This document shows positions 3,077 to 60,484 of a stretch of DNA of 64,000 nucleotides, in pieces (positions within the stretch are counted from its first letter, which is position 1; the number at the start of each line of letters is the position of its first letter). Source of the DNA: Eledone cirrhosa. Taxonomy: Eukaryota. The stretch lies in the NCBI GenBank assembly GCA_964016885.1, contig OZ024765.1:2914001-2978000 (forward strand). Direction: 5' to 3'. Both the position numbers and the translations under genes were made by a program. Under the pieces are notes generated by a model. The model saw only the letters and a list, made by a program, of their open reading frames with translations. It ran no database searches and was not told the origin of the DNA.

Positions 3077-3452
3077 GTAAGTATACAATATTTCCTATAT
3101 ATATATATACATCTATGTATGTATATATATATATATATACATGTATGTATGTATATATATATATATACACATATATACATGTATGTACATATATATATAT
3201 ATATATATAATATAAGATCACGAAGGAAATGTGGTAAGGAACCAGGTGGACCATAACGCACCAAAGTACTCAATACTTAGGGTAGTAGAGTGGGTAATAG
3301 GAACAAGTAAGACCCCGACGGCTGAGCTCAAGCCGTTTCGACGGCTAATTCTTATAATATAAGATCAAAAGATGGTTAAAAGAGTTCCAAGTATTTTATA
3401 TATATATATATAATATATATATATATATATGTGTGTATGTAAAAGGTAAACA

Positions 3453-13800: not shown

Positions 13801-16800
13801 TATTATCTGTCATTATCACCACCACCATCATCACTATTATTTTTAAAATAATAATTCTAATACTAATAAAAAAAATTAAAAAGTATCTCGTTCTACATGG
13901 CTGAATACAATAAATGTAATCTGAGTTTTTCAAATATTAATAACAACATTCAATTCGTTTGTAATTATGCAAACAAGCCTCATTTTTAAAGCCATGTCAG
14001 TAGAATGAACCCCTCATTCTTGCTCTTGTGTTGGCATGTGAACAGAACTGCAGACACTAATGTTTCTGGGTATCACTCTTCATCAGTACAGCTCACTGTT
14101 CACCTGCCAGCTGTCAGAGCTAGTGAAAATATATGCTATTTTCTAAAATACTTTACATGCCAACACAAGAGCAAGAATGAGGGGCTCATTCTACTGACAT
14201 GGCTTTAAAAATGAGGCTTGTTTGCATAATTGCAAACGATCAAATGTTATTAATATTTGAAAAACTCAAATTGCATTAATTCTAATACTAATATATATAT
14301 ATATTATACTCTCTCCACGACCACCATCATACAGGGTCTGATGTCATTGGTAAGTGAAGAAGCTGGATCTACAAGAGACCTGGAAAGTGTCACATCTGTC
14401 TATGACAATCTCTTTTGTAAGGTAAATATACCATTATTGTCATCATTTTACATCTGCTTTCCATTCTGGCATGGGTTGGACAGTTGTCACAGTTTTACCC
14501 TTGACAGAAATAATTATTTTTAGCATTCACACCAACACTGCCATTTTACAGGGTGGACTGGGTGTTTTTGTTGTGGTGCCAACACTACCATTTTACAGGG
14601 TGGACTGGGTGCTTTTTGTCATGTCAACAGCACTACCATTTTACAGAGTGGACTGGGTGTTTTTGTCGTGATGCCAACACTACCATTTTACAGGGTGGAC
14701 TGGGTGTTTTTGTCCTGATGCCAACACTACCACTTCACAGGGAGCATTTTATTGTGACACTAACATTACCACCTAACAGGGTGGTCTGGGTCAGTGTTAT
14801 TAGACACTAGCACTACCTCCTTAAAGGGTGGACTGAGGGTTTTATCATGACACCAGCATGACAACATTTACAGAGTGTACTGGGTGTTTTTTGTCTTGAC
14901 ACCAAAACTGCCACCATCATTATTCATCATCATACGTCCATTTTTTCGCACTCGCATGGGTTCGACAGGTTGTCATATTATGACACAGGTCAGGTCCAGA
15001 GACCACATCTTGTTCATATGGGTCTAAAGTCTGTCTTAAGACAGATGTGAGGCCAATGTTTATCCCGGTTTCATGGTGTGAAGTGACTGAGAGTACTAGA
15101 CTTCCCTGGACAGCACGCCAGTCCATCACAGGGTTAAAGACTATCTTAAGCCAGAAGGCTCATTTGGCCGGTGCTTATCCCAGTTTGATGGCGTGAAAGG
15201 ACTGAGAGTATAAAACACCCCTTGGACAGGACACCAGTCCATCACGGTTAAACCCCCAGCTATTGCAAGTACTCATTTTTCAGCTGAGTATACTGGAGCA
15301 ACGTGAAATGAAGTGTTTTGCTCAAGAACACAACACACAACCCAGGAATCGAACCCACGACATTATGATCGTAAGTCCAACACCCTTACCACTAGGCCAC
15401 GTACCTCATGAAATATGTTTTATGGATTTTCAATTTTGTTTTTTAGCGTGCTCACAATTACACGTTACCCAGTTGGGCCACAAATAAAGTTATGTCGAGG
15501 CTAAAGGTCTTGGAGGTTATTAAAATGAAGTTCTATTACTACAACCCTTCGATGAGGCTTTTGAAAGGAGGTAAATGGTTTAGTTTCTTCTTCTATATAT
15601 ATCATCATCATCATCGTTTAATGTCCATCTTCCACGCTAGCACGGGTAGGACGTGTTGACACTTAGGGAGAGAATCAGGTCAGAGGACCATGTTTAGCTC
15701 ACCCGGGGTAGATTTTGGCTTGGTTTCTACAGCTGGATGTCCTTCCTAATGCCAACCACTTTACAGTGTGGACTGGGTGCTTTTTGTCATGATACCTACA
15801 CACCTACAGTGTGGACTGAGTGCTTTTTGTTGTGACACCTACATGACCACTTTGCAGTGGGGACTGGGTGCTTTTTGTTGTGACACCTACATGACCACTT
15901 TGCAGTGTGGACTGGGTGTTTCTTGTGACACCTACATGACCACTTTGCAGTGGGGACTGGGTGCTTTTTGTTGTGACACCTACATGACCACTTTACAGTG
16001 TGGACTGGGTGTTTCTTGTTGTGACACCTACATGACCACTTTACAGTGTGGACTGGGTGCTTTTTGTCATGATACCTACACACCTACAGTGTGGACTGGG
16101 TGCTTTTTGTTGTGACACCTACATGACCACTTTGCTGTGGGGACTGGGTGCTTTTGTCATGACACCTGGGGGACCACTACATGGTGTGGGATGGGAACTA
16201 GGGAGGGAGGGAGAGGAAGCTTGGGGAAATTGGGGTAGTAGGTAATAGGGGAGGGATGGTTACCACAAAAGGTGGTGTATAGAAAGGGAGACGGTTGTGG
16301 AAGGTGTTGCCTACTAGGTATAAGCCTCATCCATATGTGTATATATATATGTATATATATATATATGTATATATATATATGTATACAAGGCCCTTGTATA
16401 TATATGTGTGTTTGTGCATAGAACACTATAAAGAAAACAGAAGTCGGGTATAGGTAGATAGTTAGTTCATTGTTTTACGCTCGTTTCAGAGGGTCGATTG
16501 ATAAATGGAGATTGATGTATTGATTAGCATGATAGTGGTTGAGTTACTACCCATTTCTAGTCTAGAAAACCCTGTTCAATCGGCCGTCTTCCTGCCAGAT
16601 ATAGTCCTATACGAGCGAGACACGGTCACCCGACCAATCTTGGCTCAAGTGGGACAATTCCCGTCTAAACCCATGCTAGCGTGGAAGATAGACATTAAAC
16701 GATGGTGATGTTGATGATGATGATCTCGGTAATTTTACCTGCCCTAGATAGATATCCATACATTACGGTTTGTCTCTTTGATATGTTTCAGGTCACCTTT

Positions 16801-19800: not shown

Positions 19801-22800
19801 AAGTGTTTGTGGAGTGAGTTTGTTAAGTTAACGAAGGCGTCCGTCACAGCCAACATTGAAGAGGATTGTGAAATACCTACAGACACATGTAAGTTTTATC
19901 TTTTGAATCTACTCATTGCCTTTTTCTGTCTTTGGGTGATTTTCACTCTGTGCAGCTTTTGAGGGTTGACATCATCATCATCATCATTGTTTAACGTCCA
20001 TCTTCCACGCTATGATGGGTTAGACAGGTTTGTCCCATTTAAAGGCTCGTCTTAATGCCATCCACTTTACAGTGTGGACTGGGAGCCTTTTAACCGTGTC
20101 TTTTACACGACCACTTTACAGTGAGTACTGGCTGCTTTTTGTCATGTCACCTACATGACTACTTTACAGTGAGTACTGGCTGCTTTTTGTCATGTCACCT
20201 ACATGACTACTTTACAGTGAGTACTGGGTGCTTTTTGTCATGTCACCTACATGACTACTTTACAGTGAGCACTGGCTGCTTTTTGTCATGTCACCTACAT
20301 GACTACTTTACAGTGAGTACTGGCTGCTTTTTGTCATGTCACCTACATGACTACTTTACAGTGAGCACTGGCTGCTTTTTGTTGTGACACCTACATGACT
20401 ACTTTACAGTGAGTACTGGCTGCTTTTTGTCATGTCACCTACATGACTACTTTACAGTGAGTACTGGGTGCTTTTTGTCATGTCACCTACATGACTACTT
20501 TACAGTGAGCACTGGCTGCTTTTTGTTGTGACACCTACATGACTACTTTACAGTGAGTACTGGCTGCTTTTTGTTGTGACACCTACATGACTACTTTACA
20601 GTGAGCACTGGGTGCTTTTTGTTGTGACACCTACATGACTACTTTACAGTGAGCACTGGGTGCTTTTTGTTGTGACACCTACATGACCACTTTACAGTGT
20701 GGACTGGGTGCTTTTTGTTGTGACACCTACATGACTACTTTACAGTGAGCACTGGGTGCTTTTTGTTGTGACACCTACATGACCACTTTACAGTGAGTAC
20801 TGGGTGCTTTTTGTCATGTCACCTACATGACTACTTTACAGTGAGCACTGGCTGCTTTTTGTTGTGACACCTACATGACTACTTTACAGTGAGTACTGGC
20901 TGCTTTTTGTTGTGACACCTACATGACTACTTTACAGTGAGCACTGGGTGCTTTTTGTTGTGACACCTACATGAATACTTTACAGTGAGCACTGGGTGCT
21001 TTTTGTTGTGACACCTACATGACCACTTTACAGTGTGGACTGGGTGCTTTTTGTTGTGACACCTACATGACTACTTTACAGTGAGTAGTGGGTGCTTTTT
21101 GTCATGTCACCTACATGACTACTTTACAGTGAGTACTGGGTGCTTTTTGTCATGTCACCTACATGACTACTTTACAGTGAGCACTGGGTGCTTTTTGTTG
21201 TGACACCTACATGACTACTTTACAGTGAGCACTGGGTGCTTTTTGTTGTGACACCTACATGACCACTTTACAGTGTGGACTGGGTGCTTTTTGTTGTGAC
21301 ACCTACATGACTACTTTACAGTGAGCACTGGGTGCTTTTTGTTGTGACACCTACATGACCACTTTACAGTGAGTACTGGGTGCTTTTTGTTGTGTCACTT
21401 ACATGACCACTTTACAGTGAGTACTGGGTGCTTTTTGTCATGTCACCTACATGACCACTTTACAGTGTGGACTGGGTGATTTTTGTTGTGTCACTTACAT
21501 GACCACTTTACAGTGTGAGCTGAGTGCTTTTTGTTGTGACACCTACATGACCACTTTACAGTGTGGACTGGGTGATTTTTGTTGTGACACCTACATGACC
21601 ACTTTACAGTGTGAGCTGAGTGCTTTTTGTTGTGACACCTACATGACCACTTTACAGTGTGGACTGGGTGATTTTTGTCGTGTCACTTACATGACCACTT
21701 TACAGTGTGAGCTGAGTGCTTTTTGTTGTGACACCTACATGACCACTTTACAGTGTGGACTGGGTGATTTTTGTCGTGTCACTTACATGACCACTTTACA
21801 GTGTGAGCTGAGTGCTTTTTGTTGTGACACCTACATGACCACTTTACAGTGTGGACTGGGTACTTTTTGTTGTGACACCTACATGACCACTTTACAGTGT
21901 AGGCTGGGTGCCTTTTATGCTTTTTGTCATGTCACCTACACGACCACTTTATATATAGAAATATTGTCTTATTCACCAGAAACCCTTGCAAATTTGTAAC
22001 TATACTAAGAAGCGAGGGTACTTACATAAATATTGTTACAAGTACAACATTAGTGGACGTTAAACGAAGATGGTGATGATATATACACATATTTTGTGTG
22101 TGTGTATATATATATATATACACACACACAAACACAATATATATATATATATATATATGTGTGTATATTGCCATTGTTTAATTTCCATTTCCCCTGCTAG
22201 CCAAGGCTGGCCGGGTCTACATAGATCAAGTCAGTGCTAAAGTGGGGCTACTGTCCTCATATATATATATAATTCAATATATAGGGTGTCCCCAAAAAGT
22301 GTATACACACTGTACAGGCAATACTTATTAGAATGCACAGCCTTTCCCAAAAATATAATTGTTTCTACTTTTTGCACAAGGCCAGCAATTACCCCAGTGT
22401 ATTACTGGTACTTTATTTTATTGACCCTGTAAAGATGAAAGGCAAAGTTGACCTCAGCGGGATTTGAACTCAGACCATAAAGGGCCGTAACTCTATGCTG
22501 CAAAGCATGGCGTCCGACCCTCGACCGATTCTGCCAATCCACCTTTCCCCAAAATATAATGATCTACAACAGACATAATTCAACTGTATGTAAACACCCA
22601 GAAATGTTTATAGAATTTAAATAATTATTTCTACTTTTGGAACAAGGCCAGCAATTATTTCAGTGTATTACTGGTACTTTATTTTATCGACCCCGTAAGG
22701 ATGAAAGGCAAAGTTAGCCTCGGTGGGATTTGAACTCAGACCGTAAAGGGGCGTAACTCTATGCTGCAAGGCATGGCGTCCGACCTACCGATACTGCCAA

Positions 22801-23871: not shown

Positions 23872-25002
23872 GTGACATTCCTCCCTGTCCCCCTGTCCCC
23901 TTTTATTTTCCGTATTTTTTTTTTTTTTTTTTTTTCTATCTTTTCTGTATTTCTTGGTTGTGTGGCAAACTGGGTGCCGGGATTTCTGGAGAATGTATGG
24001 GTTGGAAGAGACGGTGGGGTGGGGCATTTGCTATATTTTGGGAGAGGGGTGGGGCATTTGCTATATTTAAGGGGGGTGGGGCGCCATTTACTATATTTAG
24101 GGAGGGGGGACATTTGCTGTATTTTTAAAACTATATTTTTCTATTTGTTCTTTGAGAGAAAAGAAGAAAAAACACATTTTTTAAAATATAGTAATAATAA
24201 TAATAGTAATTTGTTTTTCCACTTATTGTATTTTTTTAATTATATTCTTCTATTTGCTCTTTAACAAAAAAAGGGGAAAAAACCACACAATTGTAAAATG
24301 TATTTTTTTTTTTTTTTAAAGAAATAATAACAACAATAATAATGTAATGTTGTACTTTGGTAGGGTCATGTTGCCAATAAAAACACATGCACTGGTTGAG
24401 TTTCACTTCAGCTCTGTTTGTAGTTAAATACCTGATTCCTTGGTTGGTTTAGTAACTGAATAGTTATTTAGTTGTCAAAGCTCTTTCGTCACACGCCATC
24501 TCACCTTTTCAGTGTCTTGTCCTCGTTTTGACGATGCTAATTGAGAAGGTCAAGGTCAGAGAATGTCTGACAAAAGAGCTTTGACAATTAACCTTCAACA
24601 CGCTAGAAATTTTTGAGTTACTTCCCTTGATACTATATTATGTATTAAGGCAACATTATTCTATCGGCAACTTAATGCCCCTATAGCATCCAGAAGGTTA
24701 ACAAACCATCCAGTTACTAAACTAACCAATGATTCGATTAGCTCCCTGTCTACTAACTAGTTTCTAACATGTGAAGAAGTGTGGTTGAGTGGTTAGAAAA
24801 CTGGATCCACAATTGTGAGGTTGTCAGTTCGATTCTCTGACCAGGCGAGGCATTATGTCCTTGAGCAAGGCACTTTATTTCACGTTGATCTTACTGCCAG
24901 GAGTTGTGACCTGTAGATAGTATCGGCAGTGGAAAGACCAATGGAAACATTGTCTCCTTGGTCCAATTTGAGAGTTGTGAACAGTGGATAGTATCAGCAA
25001 TT

Positions 25003-27340
25003 GACCCAGTGGTAAGGGTGTTGGACTTAGGATCATGATGTTGTGGGTTCGATTCCTGGACTGGGCTGTGTGTTGTGGTCTTGAGCAAGACACTTCATTT
25101 CACGTTGCTCCAGTGGTAAGGTGTTGGACTTACAATCATATCAAAGGTTCAATACCTGGACTGGGCTGTGTGTTGTGGTCTTGAGCAAGACACTTCATTT
25201 CACGTTGCTCCAGTGGTAAGGTGTTGGACTTACAATCATATCATAGGTTCAATTCCTGGACTGGGCTGTGTGTTGTGGTCTTGAGCAAGACACTTCATTT
25301 CACGTTGCTCCAGTGGTAAGGTGTTGGACTTACAATCATATCATAGGTTCAATTCCTGGACTGGGCTGTGTGTTGTGGTCTTGAGCAAGACACTTCATTT
25401 CACGTTGCTCCAGTGGTAAGGTGTTGGACTTACAATCATATCATAGGTTCAATTCCTGGACTGGGCTGTGTGTTGTGGTCTTGAGCAAGACACTTCATTT
25501 CACGTTGCTCCAGTGGTAAGGTGTTGGACTTACAATCATATCAAAGGTTCAATACCTGGACTGGGCTGTGTGTTGTGGTCTTGAGCAAGACACTTCATTT
25601 CACGTTGCTCCAGTGGTAAGGTGTTGGACTTACAATCATATCATAGGTTCAATTCCTGGACTGGGCTGTGTGTTGTGGTCTTGAGCAAGACACTTCATTT
25701 CACGTTGCTCCAGTGGTAAGGTGTTGGACTTACAATCATATCATAGGTTCAATTCCTGGACTGGGCTGTGTGTTGTGGTCTTGAGCAAGACACTTCATTT
25801 CACGTTGCTCCAGTGGTAAGGTGTTGGACTTACAATCATATCATAGGTTCAATTCCTGGACTGGGCTGTGTGTTGTGGTCTTGAGCAAGACACTTCATTT
25901 CACGTTGCTCCAGTGGTAAGGTGTTGGACTTACAATCATATCATAGGTTCAATTCCTGAACTGGGCTGTGTGTTGTGGTCTTGAGCAAGACACTTCATTT
26001 CACGTTGCTCCAGTGGTAAGGTGTTGGACTTACAATCATATCATAGGTTCAATTCCTGGACTGGGCTGTGTGTTGTGGTCTTGAGCAAGACACTTCATTT
26101 CACGTTGCTCCAGTGGTAAGGTGTTGGACTTACAATCATATCATAGGTTCAATTCCTGGACTGGGCTGTGTGTTGTGGTCTTGAGCAAGACACTTCATTT
26201 CACGTTGCTCCAGTGGTAAGGTGTTGGACTTACAATCATATCATAGGTTCAATTCCTGAACTGGGCTGTGTGTTGTGGTCTTGAGCAAGACACTTCATTT
26301 CACGTTGCTCCAGTGGTAAGGTGTTGGACTTACAATCATATCATAGGTTCAATTCCTGGACTGGGCTGTGTGTTGTGGTCTTGAGCAAGACACTTCATTT
26401 CACGTTGCTCCAGTGGTAAGGTGTTGGACTTACAATCATATCATAGGTTCAATTCCTGGACTGGGCTGTGTGTTGTGGTCTTGAGCAAGACACTTCATTT
26501 CACGTTGCTCCAGTGGTAAGGTGTTGGACTTACAATCATATCATAGGTTCAATTCCTGAACTGGGCTGTGTGTTGTGGTCTTGAGCAAGACACTTCATTT
26601 CACGTTGCTCCAGTGGTAAGGTGTTGGACTTACAATCATATCATAGGTTCAATTCCTGGACTGGGCTGTGTGTTGTGGTCTTGAGCAAGACACTTCATTT
26701 CACGTTGCTCCAGTGGTAAGGTGTTGGACTTACAATCATATCATAGGTTCAATTCCTGAACTGGGCTGTGTGTTGTGGTCTTGAGCAAGACACTTCATTT
26801 CATGTTGCTCCAGTGGTAAGGTGTTGGACTTACAATCATATCATAGATTCAATTCCTGGACTGGGCTGTGTGTTGTGGTCTTGAGCAAAACACTTCATTT
26901 CACATTGCTCCAGTGGTAAGGTGTTGGACTTACAATCATATCATAGGTTCAATTCCTGAACTGGGCTGTGTGTTGTGGTCTTGAGCAAGACACTTCATTT
27001 CACGTTGCTCCAGTGGTAAGGTGTTGGACTTACAATCATATCATAGGTTCAATTCCTGAACTGGGCTGTGTGTTGTGGTCTTGAGCAAGACACTTCATTT
27101 CACGTTGCTCCAGTGGTAAGGTGTTGGACTTACAATCATATCATAGATTCAATTCCTGGACTGGGCTGTGTGTTGTGGTCTTGAGCAAAACACTTCATTT
27201 CACATTGCTCCAGTATACTTAGCTGAAAATGGAAAAGCTGGGAGTTTAACCCTGCGATGGACTGGCGTCCTATCCAGTGGAGAGTCTTGTACTCTGTCAC
27301 TTCACACCATGAAACCGGGATAAGTACCGGCCAAATGAGT
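25003..27340 (+). repeat. 22 tandem copies (100-bp unit) of the tRNA head + CORE domain of a SINE, ending in one SINE tail
   Basis: Unit cagtggtaaggtgttggacttacaatcatatcataggttcaattcctggactgggctgtgtgttgtggtcttgagcaagacacttcatttcacgttgctc. Dispersed family members near 12400 (-), 15030-15405 (-), 24780, 31550-31990 (-) and 41060. Confidence 0.93.
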
Positions 27341-27354
27341 CTTAAATGGTTTAA

Positions 27355-27552
27355 CCCTTTAACATTTATATTGCTCTATATTTACTATTACATTTCCATG
27401 GTAAAGGCTTAATATCGAATCTATGAGATTTTGATATTATTTATTTTGAGAACAATACCTTAACATCAGTATGAGTGGCCAGTTATGGCCAGTTTGAAAC
27501 GAAAGAGGTGAGAGAATTCTGGCCAGATATAGCTGGTTTAAATGCTAAAGGG
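27355..27552. mobile_element. piggyBac-type MITE (TTAA TSD, CCCTTTARCATTTA TIR)
   Basis: ttaa|ccctttaacattta...taaatgctaaaggg|ttaa; another copy at 8659-8910. Confidence 0.82.
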
Positions 27553-27802
27553 TTAAGACGGCCTTAATAGAAGCATTGTTTCCTTGATCCGATAACTGAA
27601 TGAGATCTAGGAACTTGTGATCAGTCGATACTATATATATTATACTCCAGAAGAAACCTGTTGAGTGCTTCTATTCTGTTATAAATTAACTTTGTTGAAT
27701 AATCAACAAAACAAATAACTTATTGTTTATATATATATATATATATATATATCATCATTTAAAATCCATTTTTCCATGCTAGCATATATGTGTGTGTGCA
27801 TG

Positions 27803-27871
<69 letters not shown>

Positions 27872-28088
27872 CCCATGCTAGCGTGGAAAATGGACGTTAA
27901 ACGAAGATGATGATGATGATGATATGTATATATGGATATTAATGATACTCTGGATAAAAATTCATGTTGAGTGCTTCTAATCTGTTGTAAATTAACTTTG
28001 TTGAATAATCAACAAACCAATTAACTCATTGTTAATATATATATATATACACATATATATACAGAGGCACCAGTTGTGTGTATATATA

Positions 28089-28139
<51 letters not shown>

Positions 28140-28375
28140 GTGAGGTTTTTTTTACAAAATGAAAAATAACCGAGGTGTCCTACACGAGTGAAAGTATAAA
28201 GAAAAAGGGATGAAATCGAAAATGCAACTGGAGTCTTATTTTTTTTTTAAAATATATATATTTATTTGGTTCCTTTACCGGTTTCGCAGTTCTTCTGCTT
28301 TTCAAAAGGTGAGTTGAGATGGAGGGTCTGTGTTTTTCTCACATGAGAAAAACACAGACCCTCCATCTCAACTCA

Positions 28376-28413
28376 CCTTTTGAAAAGCAGAAGAACTGCG
28401 AAACCGGTAAAGG
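28376..28413 (+). ncRNA. Minimal type-I hammerhead ribozyme, U3-A8 core variant (mirror copy 28272-28309 on -)
   Basis: CCUU UUGAAAA GCAG-aagaa-CUGC GAAA CCGGU A AAGG: stem I, core, stem II, palindromic stem III, GUA site. Confidence 0.8.
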
Positions 28414-28482
28414 AACCAAATAAATATATATATTTTTTTAAAAAATAAGACTCCAGTTGCATTTTCGATTTCATCCCTTTTT

Positions 28483-28525
<43 letters not shown>

Positions 28526-28713
28526 TGTAATCAACAACATGAGACAATTATTCCATTTATATATATTCCATATATATATCAGGATTTAGCTGTAAACCAA
28601 TAAAGTAGTTTAGTTTCTCAGCTAATGAAACCAAAAGTGACAATAACAGCTAGAGCATCTGTTTTGATATAAGCAACATGACCCTACCAAAGTATAACTC
28701 ATATATATGTATA

Positions 28714-28791
28714 CAGGGTGTCTCAAAAATGTATACACACTTCAACAACATTCTTATAAATATGTGTATACATTTTTGGGGGGATACCCTG
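28714..28791. mobile_element. 78-bp minimal Tc1/mariner-type MITE
   Basis: ta|cagggtgtctcaaaaatgtatacaca...tgtgtatacatttttggggggataccctg|ta. Confidence 0.75.
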
Positions 28792-28799
28792 TATATATG

Positions 28800-28849
<50 letters not shown>

Positions 28850-28939
28850 CATACATATATATACAAACAGAGGCACCAGTTGTGTGTATATATATATATA
28901 TATATACATATATATACAGAGGCACCAGTTGTGTGTATA

Positions 28940-29007
<68 letters not shown>

Positions 29008-29122
29008 TATACAGAGGCACCAGTTGTGTGTATATATATGTGTATATATACATATATATACAAACAGAGGCACCAGTTGTGTGTATATATATATTTGTAT
29101 ATATACAAACAGAGGCACCAGT

Positions 29123-29153
<31 letters not shown>

Positions 29154-29349
29154 GTATATATACACACACACACACACAAATAAGTGGTGCCTCTGTTTGT
29201 ATTTGCAACATGACCCTACCCAAGTCTAACAGTAGCTGTAGTAAACATTTATTTTTTTTTTTACTTCATATATATTTTTTAAACTATATTTTTCTATTTG
29301 CTCCGTAAGAACGGAGAGGAAAATCATGTTTAAAATATTTTTTTTAATA

Positions 29350-29386
<37 letters not shown>

Positions 29387-29539
29387 TTAATAATGATAAT
29401 TTAATGATGTTTTTTTGTTGTTGTTGTTGTTGTTGTTTTTGTCATTGTTTTGTATACCACCACCACATCCACCCCCACCACTACAATCATCTTCACCATC
29501 ATCATCACCACCACTACCATCATCATCACCACCACTACC

Positions 29540-29570
<31 letters not shown>

Positions 29571-30050
29571 CTAACCCCACCATCATTACCACCACCAATA
29601 TCATCAACAACGACAACAACAACAACACCACCACCACCTTGTTTGTTTTGCCGGAAAAATTTGTTTCTGTGGAACCTCCTTCTTGGCTGTGAGAGGTCAT
29701 TGCTGTTGTTGTTGTTGTTGTTGGTGGTGGAGGGTGTTGTTGGTAGTGGTGGTGGTGGTGGTGGTGGAGGGTGTTGTTGGTAGTGGTGTTGTTGATGGTG
29801 TTGTTGGCAGGGATGTTGTTGGTGGTGGTGGTGGAGGGTGTTGTTGGTGGTGGTGGTGTTTACTAAAAAGGACTCGGTTCATAGCTGTTGTTGGTGGAGG
29901 GGGTAGTAGTGGTGATGGTAGTTGTGGTGTCGGTGTCTACTAAATAGGTACTTGGTACATAGCTAAAGTGGTATTGGCAGTGGTGTAAGTGGTGGTGTTT
30001 ACTGAAAAGGCAAATGGTATTGATGGTGGTAGTATTTACTAAATAGAAAC

Positions 30051-58783
<28,733 letters not shown>

Positions 58784-58869
58784 ACTGGTGCTGTACTGTC
58801 AAGGTGAACGAGGACCGAGAGAGAATTTGGAACACTGGACGGCTGCAATTGGAAGATAAGAGATACATA

Positions 58870-59530
58870 CATAAAGCTGACCGTACCCAATTACATCTCC
58901 CAAAGGCAACGACACACGACTGTGACCTTTGGCGTCACGCAGTAATACAGAAGACCTCCCCCCCCCATGGGTACAAGCTGAAGCTGAAGCATATAGACAA
59001 TATACCCCCACACCCTCCCACTGCAAAGTGGTCGTGGAGGTGCCACGGAAAAAAAAGCACCCAGCGCTCACTGTAAATGAGGTTGGTGTTAGGAAGGACA
59101 TCCAGCTGTAGAAATCAAGCCAGAATCAGTTCCTGTATGAGCAAGGCATGGTCAGCCGACCATGATGATGATGATGATACCATCATCACCGTTTTACGTC
59201 CGTTCTTCCACGCTAGCATGGGTTAGACGGGTTGTCCTGTTGTGGGCAGTGTCTGGTCGGCTGACCATGCCTTGCTCATACAGGAACTGATCTGGCTTGA
59301 TTTCTACAGCTGGATGCCCTTCCTAACACCAACCTCATTTACAGTGAGTGCTGGGTGCTTTTTCGTGGCGCCTACACGTCCACTTTACAGTGTGGGCTGG
59401 GTGCTTTTCTGCGGTGGGGGGGGGGGGGGCATATTGTCTATATGCTTCAGCTTGTACCCATGGGAGGTCGGGTACTCTGTATTACTGTCTAACGCCAGAG
59501 ATCACGGTCGTGTGTCATCGCCTTTGAGAG
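58870..59530. mobile_element. Tail-to-tail pair of the same RTE-derived element
   Basis: 58870-59180 (+) and 59180-59530 (-), meeting at gatgatgat/catcatc tails. Confidence 0.82.
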
Positions 59531-59593
59531 GTATATATATATATATATATCAATGATATTAATAAATGGAAACTATATTTATAAAAACATATT

Positions 59594-59654
59594 TATTCTA
59601 TTATATATATTTCAAGGGTACCAAAACTTTGGTACGCTCTCATCAGATAAAATA
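59594..59654 (-). ncRNA. Hammerhead motif, family B (also 59748-59810 +, 41335-41391 -, 44318-44383 -, ~42692-42750 -, truncated ~3720-3773)
   Basis: UAUUUUAU CUGAUGA GAG-c-GUACCAAA-gu-UUUGGUAC-c-CUU GAAA UAUAUA UA AUAGAAUA. Confidence 0.72.
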
Positions 59655-60484
59655 CAAAGTTTGTTTTATAAATATTGACATATCCAGGAACGAGATGTTA
59701 ACGGTTCAAGTTTTTCTGGATAGTCAATATTTATAAAACAAACTTTGTATTTAATCTGAAGAGAGCGTACCAAAGTTTTGGTACCCTTGAAATATATATA
59801 TAATAGAATAAATATGGTTTTATATATAGTTTCCATTTATTAATATCATTGATATTATACTCCAGAAAATCTGTTGAGTGCTTCAAATCAGTTATAAATA
59901 TATATATTTGTTGAATTACCAACAAATTAAATATCCCTTTGCATATATATATATATATATAGACAATATGCCCCCATCCCCTACCACTGTAAAGTGATCG
60001 TGGAGGTGTCACGGCAAAAAACACCCAGAGATAAAAATACCTAAAAGAGGCATACATTTGCTGTATGTTTAATTCTTGGTAATTTTCAGAGGCCTGTAGA
60101 TGGAAAAATATACAAAATTCACTTGATTTAATAAGATATTTGAACTCTACAGAAAAAGTTAGCCCCAAACACATGAGTTCAAAGTTGTGCTTACCTTATT
60201 AGAAGAGAAATGGCTGTCTCAAGTTGGTCCGAGAGACTCTTTAGGAAAAAAATGTACAATTAATTAATATTTTTAAAAGCCTACAATTTCAAAACTATCA
60301 AAGATCTTGATTTAATACTTGATATTTTTCCATCGTATAGGTACAGGAGCTAGTATGAATATGTACAGGAGGATCTGATGGGGTGACCAGGACCCCTCTG
60401 GGTGATTTGACATGGAATGACCCTATATATATATACAATACTTTTTGAGCCCTCTTCGGATTTCAGCCTTCGTAATTATTATTA

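What the first reader, a model, noticed from the sequence alone, without database searches (positions are those of the whole stretch)
24350..59940. Six ribozyme-bearing palindromes all share the same head-to-head polarity
Seen: inverted repeats at ~24473-24587, 28195-28489, 37068-37241, 42878-43015, 55855-56559 and 59547-59855 belong to five different families. In every case the hammerhead reads outward from the centre (+ strand in the right arm, - strand in the left). Spacers are tiny in three cases (CA, TCT, CA). Known: Penelope-like elements often carry inverted pLTR copies at 5'-truncated ends. Inference: a shared fold-back/self-priming step of the cDNA repeatedly generates hairpin insertions, so each one delivers a ribozyme on both strands and a perfect dsRNA stem to any host intron.
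Basis: partly seen in the sequence, partly recalled or inferred. Interest (0 to 1): 0.78.

Follow-up and report, generated by a model that had tools for sequence, protein, structure and literature searches.

The report
Mirror-image Penelope retrotransposon insertions
These mirror-image repeats are insertions of Penelope-like jumping genes, a known arrangement; in every two-armed copy checked exactly one half carries a short extra end piece, which likely means that both cut ends of the chromosome each started their own copy from one RNA rather than one copy folding back on itself.

Summary
The six inverted repeats are real and head-to-head. They are insertions of five Penelope-like element (PLE) families; family A has a full-length copy with RT, GIY-YIG nuclease, pLTRs and tail. 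The head-to-head layout, hammerheads on opposite strands and a self-priming explanation are already published (Arkhipova 2013, Cervera 2014, Craig 2021). This scan also found such palindromes in other genomes.

'A ribozyme on both strands' is overstated: 5 of 12 arms pass a hammerhead descriptor, and a read-through RNA is predicted to lock the motif in the arm-arm duplex.

What is added: in 105 of 105 same-family pairs exactly one arm carries the 60-90 nt tail. That arm is often the shorter one, and in 9 pairs the arms barely overlap or not at all. Arms share alleles; one four-A>G haplotype occurs only in its own two arms. Plain cDNA fold-back cannot give this.

Best reading (0.55): twin priming on one RNA from the two RT start sites shown in vitro, joined by microhomology. 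Main rival (0.27): fold-back plus a nuclease nick at the pLTR end.

The parts
55855..56219 (-). Family A tail-less arm, ending at the pLTR end; hammerhead core at 56060
56222..56617 (+). Family A tail-bearing arm; hammerhead core at 56354; pLTR end 56559; tail 56560-56617
55842..55853 (+). Left copy of the 12-bp target-site duplication
   Evidence: empty-site joint 55841>56618 with 12 shared letters in contigs of 3 of 4 runs laid
56618..56629 (+). Right copy of the 12-bp target-site duplication
28133..28341 (-). Family C tail-bearing arm (tail 28133-28194); U3-A8 hammerhead core at 28305
28344..28489 (+). Family C tail-less arm; U3-A8 hammerhead core at 28380
37009..37161 (-). Family D tail-bearing arm (tail about 37009-37065); hammerhead core intact, stem I truncated at the junction
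37165..37245 (+). Family D tail-less arm; stem I truncated, 13-nt deletion in the stem II region
42626..42945 (-). Family E tail-bearing arm (arm 42873-42945); its tail is interrupted by a family-B-related hammerhead insertion at about 42682-42830; non-canonical core
42948..43020 (+). Family E tail-less arm; non-canonical core
59542..59690 (-). Family B tail-less arm; hammerhead core at 59646
59713..59942 (+). Family B tail-bearing arm (tail about 59856-59939); core at 59756 with a stem I mismatch
24345..24520 (-). Old family-A-related arm ending at the pLTR end; decayed hammerhead
24535..24737 (+). Old family-A-related arm, decayed and interrupted at about 24593-24700 by a TTAA-flanked insertion; tail status cannot be scored
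   Evidence: read by eye
43021..43341 (.). Missed head-to-head pair, family A relative: tail plus 9 nt on minus (43021-43090), long tail-less arm with an intact hammerhead on plus (43092-43341)
41280..41563 (.). Missed head-to-head pair, family B: long tail-less arm on minus (41280-41426), short tail-bearing arm on plus (41454-41563)
13906..14284 (.). Missed asymmetric inverted pair of a sixth family; hammerhead-like core only in the long (minus) arm at 14086; tail not scored

Best explanation
Each palindrome is one Penelope-like element insertion, likely made by twin priming on a single sense RNA. Shown: the insertion is head-to-head, one arm ends at the tail end and the other at the pLTR end, a 12-bp target duplication flanks it where the target is not a pure microsatellite, and the arms share alleles. 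Inferred: the element's nuclease nicks both target strands about 12 nt apart, usually in (TA)n. One 3' end primes reverse transcription at the tail end and the other at the pLTR end, 60-90 nt upstream; these match the two start sites seen in vitro for a lizard PLE. The two cDNAs run towards the RNA's 5' end, one displacing or blocking the other, and stop independently or together at the RNA's end. Their 3' ends then anneal through 2-5 nt of microhomology or short templated fillers, and each copies the other. Both outer ends are therefore element 3' ends, which forces the outward polarity. The hammerhead is there because it sits in the pLTR. The palindromes are likely by-products, not ribozyme-delivery devices.
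For: Tail on exactly one arm in 105 of 105 same-family pairs: family A 40 (38, plus L041 and L047 read by eye), families B-E 65 (61 by script, 4 resolved by eye). Control: tail-to-tail neighbours are same-type in 9 of 13 (tallied by eye; Fisher p 4e-9). In family A the tail arm is shorter in 13, longer in 17 and within 10 nt in 8 of 38; arm starts are not significantly correlated (rho 0.19, p 0.25). Nine pairs have a tail-only arm with no real overlap (L184, L204, L206, L041, L047, L132, L146, L160, L162); the five in family A stop about 40 nt past the pLTR end, and contigs show a joint at the same place. L199 has a non-overlapping upstream inverted arm and L203 a 34-nt filler from RNA upstream of both arms, as in L1 twin priming. 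Four of 57 family A insertions are lone tail-less copies. One template: 27 variant sites shared by both arms, 2 discordant at alleles seen elsewhere; the four-A>G sense-strand haplotype of L036 occurs twice in 3 Gb, in its two arms. Microhomology of 2 nt or more in 14 of 20 junctions without an insert, against 14.5% expected (p 3e-8). 12-bp duplications in 3 of 3 non-microsatellite targets. In vitro, a PLE protein cuts and extends both strands and starts at two sites bounding the tail (PMC11167929).
Against: Fold-back followed by a nick at the pLTR end on either strand also gives one tail per pair, shared alleles and either arm longer. Eight of 38 centres are symmetric within 10 nt, two of them inside the ORF, as fold-back predicts. 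Three family A insertions have only 10-20 nt inverted stubs (L040, L186, L189), and chimeric junctions hold 4-9 nt inverted remnants, so snap-back copying does occur. The model needs strand displacement on an RNA:DNA hybrid, which was not tested. The editing-like haplotype is a single locus, there is no family-wide A>G strand bias (25 vs 10, p 0.48), and arm-to-arm gene conversion could also share alleles. In the older families many common alleles sit on one arm only (B 14 of 19, C 56 of 75, D 9 of 18, E 16 of 22); I read these as query-selected recurrent changes and a slipping T/A tract but did not prove it. L203 and L188 could be later deletions. Copies were the best hits to window arms, not a random sample.
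Confidence: 0.55

Rival explanations
1. Fold-back plus nuclease resolution. One cDNA is primed at the tail end, stops, folds back and copies itself; the GIY-YIG nuclease then nicks one strand at the pLTR/tail boundary, and the freed end is joined to the second target end. A nick on the copy gives a long tail arm; a nick on the first strand gives a short one.
For: Explains one tail per pair, shared alleles, symmetric centres (8 of 38) and microhomology. Craig 2021 attributes the one-sided tail to nuclease resolution of the intermediate. Short inverted stubs show snap-back copying.
Against: Needs fold-backs over 1-2 kb in many pairs and repeated landing about 40 nt into the tail from stop points 75-2084 nt away. 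L203 holds pieces that neither arm could template. Lone tail-less copies and the in vitro second start site show direct priming at the pLTR end.
Confidence: 0.27
2. Both target ends are primed, but on two separate RNA molecules carried by a protein dimer.
For: Four head-to-head pairs join different families: L039, L049, L082, L101. A dimer is predicted for the lizard protein. One-arm alleles are frequent in the older families.
Against: Family A arms agree at 27 variant sites and differ at 2 alleles seen elsewhere; the L036 haplotype is private to one insertion. The chimeras keep inverted remnants of a family C centre and L049 has two tails, so deletion between neighbouring insertions could have made them.
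Confidence: 0.07
3. Self-priming on an antisense RNA, as proposed by Arkhipova et al. 2013: an antisense transcript folds at its 3' end and primes its own copying, and the hairpin is then integrated.
For: Published explanation of head-to-head junctions; accounts for shared alleles and symmetric centres.
Against: The only substitution cluster found is A>G on the sense strand in both arms, which fits A-to-I editing of a sense template (inference, one locus). In vitro priming used sense RNA. It gives no reason for tail-only arms.
Confidence: 0.06
4. Plain cDNA fold-back, with no second priming and no nick.
For: Symmetric centres and pairs whose tail-less arm is a subset of the tail arm (17 of 38 shorter, 8 near-equal).
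Against: Cannot make the 13 of 38 pairs with a shorter tail arm or the 9 tail-only arms, and does not explain why the copy stops at the pLTR end.
Confidence: 0.04
5. Assembly artefact from fold-back reads.
For: No contig of the laid runs spans the centre of the 55.9-kb or the 37.1-kb palindrome.
Against: Arms stop at two fixed element positions, do not copy the flanks, carry target duplications and differ by point changes. Contigs of public runs show head-to-head joints of family A and the empty site, and match both outer ends of the 37.1-kb pair exactly, though just at the bridging limit. These runs may be the assembly's own sample.
Confidence: 0.01

Closest known systems
Insertion units of canonical EN+ Penelope-like elements (Arkhipova et al. 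2013, PMC3846280; Craig et al. 2021, PMC8557442)
   Same: Inverted 5'-truncated copy at the 5' end, head-to-head as the most frequent arrangement, tail at one end, short target duplication, AT-rich targets, long Asn-rich ORF insert.
   Different: Tail is 60-90 nt here, against 30-40 nt in those papers. They call the tail optional or often one-sided; here it is on exactly one arm in 105 of 105 pairs. Their mechanisms are antisense self-priming and nuclease resolution.
Neptune/Nematis-type PLEs with a CX2-5CxxC linker (Craig et al. 2021)
   Same: Family A ORF has RT, then a CX4CxxC linker, then a GIY-YIG domain with two Cys and two His; it inserts in (TA)n.
   Different: Clade not tested by a tree; ORFs of families B-E were not recovered.
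PAc (Poseidon) in vitro system (Frangieh et al. 2024, PMC11167929)
   Same: Both strands cut and extended; two RT start sites bound the tail; AT-rich target; hammerhead not needed for insertion in vitro.
   Different: The parts I read do not model the inverted arm or tie the two start sites to the two target ends; the element is of another clade.
LINE-1 twin priming (described in bioRxiv 10.1101/2024.08.27.596794)
   Same: Both nicks prime on one RNA, cDNA ends join by microhomology, and internal deletions, overlaps and templated switches occur; L199 and L203 match these patterns.
   Different: In L1 the second primer anneals at chance internal sites and gives a mostly non-overlapping inversion; here the second start is fixed near the first, so the arms overlap and form palindromes.
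[quoted passage not shown]
   Same: Type I motifs with short or palindromic stem III, an extra base before stem II, a U3-A8 variant, and pairs on opposite strands 100-700 bp apart.
   Different: Family E has a CAGAAGA core, which I did not see in the passages read; activity is untested.

Membership tests
EN+ Penelope-like element | Single ORF with RT followed by a C-terminal GIY-YIG nuclease | tested here: met
   Family A only: 1282-codon open frame in L031. Pfam on the whole frame found nothing at 0.01; on pieces RVT_1 E 8.8e-5 and GIY-YIG E 0.0022, both under the curated cut-offs. Atlas neighbours with RT and GIY-YIG families score 0.96.
EN+ Penelope-like element | pLTR-ORF-pLTR partial tandem with tail | tested here: met
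   L031, L205, L208.
EN+ Penelope-like element | Adjacent inverted 5'-truncated copy, tail at one end | tested here: met
   105 pairs in five families.
EN+ Penelope-like element | Hammerhead motif in the pLTR | tested here: met
   Descriptor passes with an exact core in 20 of 30 (B), 22 of 30 (C, U3-A8) and 19 of 30 (D) sampled loci and in family A arms; family E has only a non-canonical core.
EN+ Penelope-like element | Short target-site duplication, AT-rich target | tested here: met
   12 bp in 3 of 3 non-microsatellite family A targets; most others lie in (TA)n, where it cannot be read.
EN+ Penelope-like element (families B-E) | Own RT/nuclease ORF | not tested
   Only 1.5-kb flanks were fetched; assignment rests on hammerhead, tail, target and insertion anatomy.
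Neptune/Nematis clades | CX2-5CxxC linker before GIY-YIG | tested here: met
   Motif read in the L031 translation against the definition; no tree built.
Active self-cleaving ribozyme | Cleavage of its own RNA | not testable with these tools
   Needs an assay; such minimal motifs showed no monomer activity and low dimer activity.
Non-LTR retrozyme | Tandem repeats with a hammerhead in each unit | tested here: not met
   The six are inverted pairs, not tandems (definition).
MITE / DNA transposon with terminal inverted repeats | Fixed inverted ends and a fixed internal part | tested here: not met
   The two ends differ by the tail, and centres vary by more than 2 kb between copies.
LINE-1-type twin priming | Both target ends prime on one RNA | tested here: inconclusive
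   Genomic patterns fit but fold-back plus nick is not excluded.

The most novel reading that the evidence does not exclude
Penelope-like elements use programmed twin priming as a routine insertion route: one target strand starts at the tail end, the other at the pLTR end of the same sense RNA, and the cDNAs are joined by microhomology. This one step would explain the inverted pLTR, the head-to-head rule and the one-sided tail that the field calls undefined.
Probability: 0.55. Interest if true: 0.6.

Novelty: new member of a known kind. Interest (0 to 1): 0.36.

Why it matters
The feature itself is known, so it matters little as a discovery. Its use is as a data set. How PLEs build their tandem and inverted insertions is described as still undefined (Craig 2021). 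The strict one-tail rule, the tail-only arms and the shared alleles rule out plain fold-back and narrow the choice to two models that an existing in vitro system can separate. If twin priming at two fixed sites holds, it links the two RT start sites seen in vitro to the two ends of genomic insertions. For the host, these families seed long hairpins in introns: here four pairs lie between exons of an SLC13-like transporter gene. Any effect on that gene is untested.

Tried and rejected
Rfam: no family at gathering threshold; the E-value scan listed 150 of 368 matches, nearly all microRNA models on microsatellites and hairpins, with no hammerhead among those shown. Raw repeat scans were swamped by microsatellites. 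Pfam on the whole family A frame gave nothing.

A family-wide sense-strand A>G bias was not found, and the A>G excess among shared private variants was not significant (3 of 8 vs 5 of 48, p 0.08). An early impression that arm lengths are correlated did not hold in the larger sample.

Sequencing runs: no RNA holder listed and only contigs were offered, so expression and ribozyme cleavage were not examined; neither window centre tested was covered.

Rows dropped before counting: four duplicate loci of the same insertion (L072, L085, L108, L128); L073, which is two separate insertions; three low-complexity zones of family A in the variant counts; L188, L195 and L208 in the junction count.

MITE and retrozyme readings were rejected (see membership test). 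Cross-family pairs were considered as proof of two templates and set aside as ambiguous. PMC9977147 (passages) and bioRxiv 10.1101/2024.12.14.628481 (passages) did not bear on PLE palindromes.
Full report
1. Observation. The window is G000:C26:2914001-2978000 of a 3.0-Gb, microsatellite-rich animal-like genome. All six inverted repeats are present and read outward; shuffles give none (0 in 20). Identities run from 79% to 100%, and only the 55.9-kb pair is a perfect stem. A type I hammerhead descriptor passes 5 of the 12 arms; the others have a weakened or truncated stem I, a non-canonical core or decay (by eye). Three more head-to-head pairs lie at 13.9, 41.3 and 43.0 kb.

2. What they are. 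The 55.9-kb arm finds near-identical copies genome-wide (40 of 331 candidates scored). L031 holds pLTR, a 1282-codon frame, pLTR and tail, with an inverted truncated copy upstream. The frame has weak RT and GIY-YIG matches, Atlas neighbours of that architecture and a CX4CxxC linker typical of Neptune/Nematis PLEs. Families B-E share the anatomy (hammerhead, fixed pLTR end, 60-90 nt tail, (TA)n targets), but their ORFs were not fetched.

3. Polarity. Of 116 distinct focal copies of B-E (best hits, 1.5-kb flanks), 65 have a directly joined head-to-head partner and none a directly joined tail-to-tail one; 13 tail-to-tail neighbours are separated by target DNA, one by only a short TA run. Of 57 family A insertions read with long flanks: 39 have two arms reaching the element end, 5 have an inverted arm ending internally, 2 are joined head-to-head to another family, 3 have 10-20 nt inverted stubs and 8 are lone. 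One neighbouring pair in L204 brings family A to 40 pairs.

4. The tail rule. In all 105 same-family pairs one arm ends at the tail end and the other at the pLTR end; six were scored by eye. The window pairs obey it in 7 of 7 scorable cases (five are among the 105). In 38 family A pairs the tail arm is shorter in 13, longer in 17 and within 10 nt in 8. Nine pairs have a tail-only arm. Centres vary by over 2 kb but cluster at one spot in families A and C, which I infer to be the RNA's 5' end; contigs of public runs show joints at the family A spot.

5. One template. Family A arms share 27 variant sites (8 private) and differ at 48 private sites and at 2 alleles seen elsewhere, over 19,459 compared sites. 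A haplotype of four sense-strand A>G changes in 36 nt occurs exactly twice in the genome, in the two arms of L036; I infer A-to-I editing of a sense RNA, from one locus, and found no family-wide bias. Against this reading, older families show many one-arm common alleles. The alignments show linked diagnostic sites agreeing between arms while the sites my queries selected disagree, which fits recurrent change but is not proof.

6. Junctions and ends. Of 35 family A centres, 14 have 2-5 nt microhomology, 1 has 1 nt, 5 are blunt and 15 carry inserts; microhomology exceeds chance (p 3e-8). All three non-microsatellite targets have 12-bp duplications; for the window copy, contigs show the empty site. 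In two of the three, the target end next to the tail-less arm is complementary to the pLTR end (by eye).

7. Mechanism. A fold-back copy can only contain what its template contains, so short or tail-only tail arms exclude plain fold-back. Twin priming on one RNA explains all classes, including L199 (non-overlapping upstream arm), L203 (filler from upstream RNA) and lone tail-less copies. It matches in vitro data in which both strands are extended and two start sites bound the tail (PMC11167929; parts 1-2 of 4 read, supplements not read) and L1 twin priming (bioRxiv 10.1101/2024.08.27.596794, passages). Fold-back with a nick at the pLTR end on either strand also explains most classes, at the cost of long-range fold-backs with repeated landing in the tail and a later deletion in L203. 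I put these at 0.55 and 0.27. Nick geometry, priming order, strand displacement and joining are all inferred.

8. Function. Read-through RNA is predicted to pair 91-100% of the right-arm hammerhead with the left arm (4 of 4 folded). Minimal PLE hammerheads showed no monomer activity (PMC4209133, passages) and were dispensable for insertion in vitro. No RNA data were available.

9. What is known. Arkhipova 2013 (PMC3846280; passages and Discussion) states that head-to-head is the most frequent arrangement, notes the tail on one inverted pLTR and proposes antisense self-priming. Craig 2021 (PMC8557442; passages) draws the inverted copy and one-sided tail and calls the cycle undefined. Cervera 2014 notes opposite-strand hammerhead pairs and the U3-A8 core. 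A retrozyme preprint (10.64898/2026.07.22.740005, part 1 of 5) concerns tandem units. I found no paper proposing twin priming for PLEs in searches; subscription papers such as Arkhipova 2006 and the supplements were not seen, so it may be in print. Three earlier notes of this scan report similar palindromes in other genomes; none exist for this genome.

10. Verdict. Real, ordinary for PLEs, with an overstated ribozyme claim. The counts add a testable constraint on an open mechanism. New member of a known kind; interest 0.36.

Noticed in passing
window 50119-50415, 45123-45530, 31338-31502 (minus strand): Open frames holding exons of an SLC13-like (Na_sulph_symp/CitMHS) transporter gene; several palindromes lie between them.
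   Followed up: partly
window 51181-55268 (minus strand): LINE with a 944-codon endonuclease-RT frame and an upstream 424-codon frame; a second RT fragment at 41618-42646.
   Followed up: partly
window about 24589-24704: About 110-bp insertion with short terminal inverted repeats between TTAA copies, inside the old palindrome's right arm; piggyBac-like by recall.
   Followed up: no
L089 (family C): A 70-nt unit running from the presumed RNA 5' end to just past the hammerhead cleavage site is repeated three extra times in one arm; it may record copying of a self-cleaved or circular RNA fragment.
   Followed up: no
family E, L153-L182; window 42873-43020: Conserved hammerhead-like fold with CAGAAGA in place of CUGANGA; the last core base is G in all query-selected arms and A in all 13 partner arms that cover it.
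   Followed up: partly
L039, L049, L082, L101: Head-to-head joins between arms of different PLE families, including two further hammerhead families.
   Followed up: partly
L036:5655-5700: Cluster of four sense-strand A>G changes shared by both arms and found nowhere else in the genome; looks like fixed A-to-I editing.
   Followed up: yes
window 56288-56305 and 43092-43110: The family A centre hot spot lies just upstream of an AA(A/G)ATGGCG motif that resembles a YY1 site (recalled), as would suit an internal promoter.
   Followed up: no
window 24990-27230, 20100-21900, 30300-31130, 32500-33740, 34290-35600, 39520-40800, 45600-49950, 50650-51270: Long tandem arrays with units of 48-100 bp, several apparently amplified from pieces of a tRNA-like SINE.
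   Followed up: no
window about 4260 and 59160: Two further local inverted-repeat centres, apparently pairs of an interspersed SINE-like repeat rather than hammerhead elements.
   Followed up: no
window 62817-62787, 44375-44334, 10922-10898 (minus strand): Further lone hammerhead-like cores.
   Followed up: no
window about 3214-3253 (plus strand): Short hydrophobic frame after a methionine that resembles a signal peptide; no Pfam match.
   Followed up: partly
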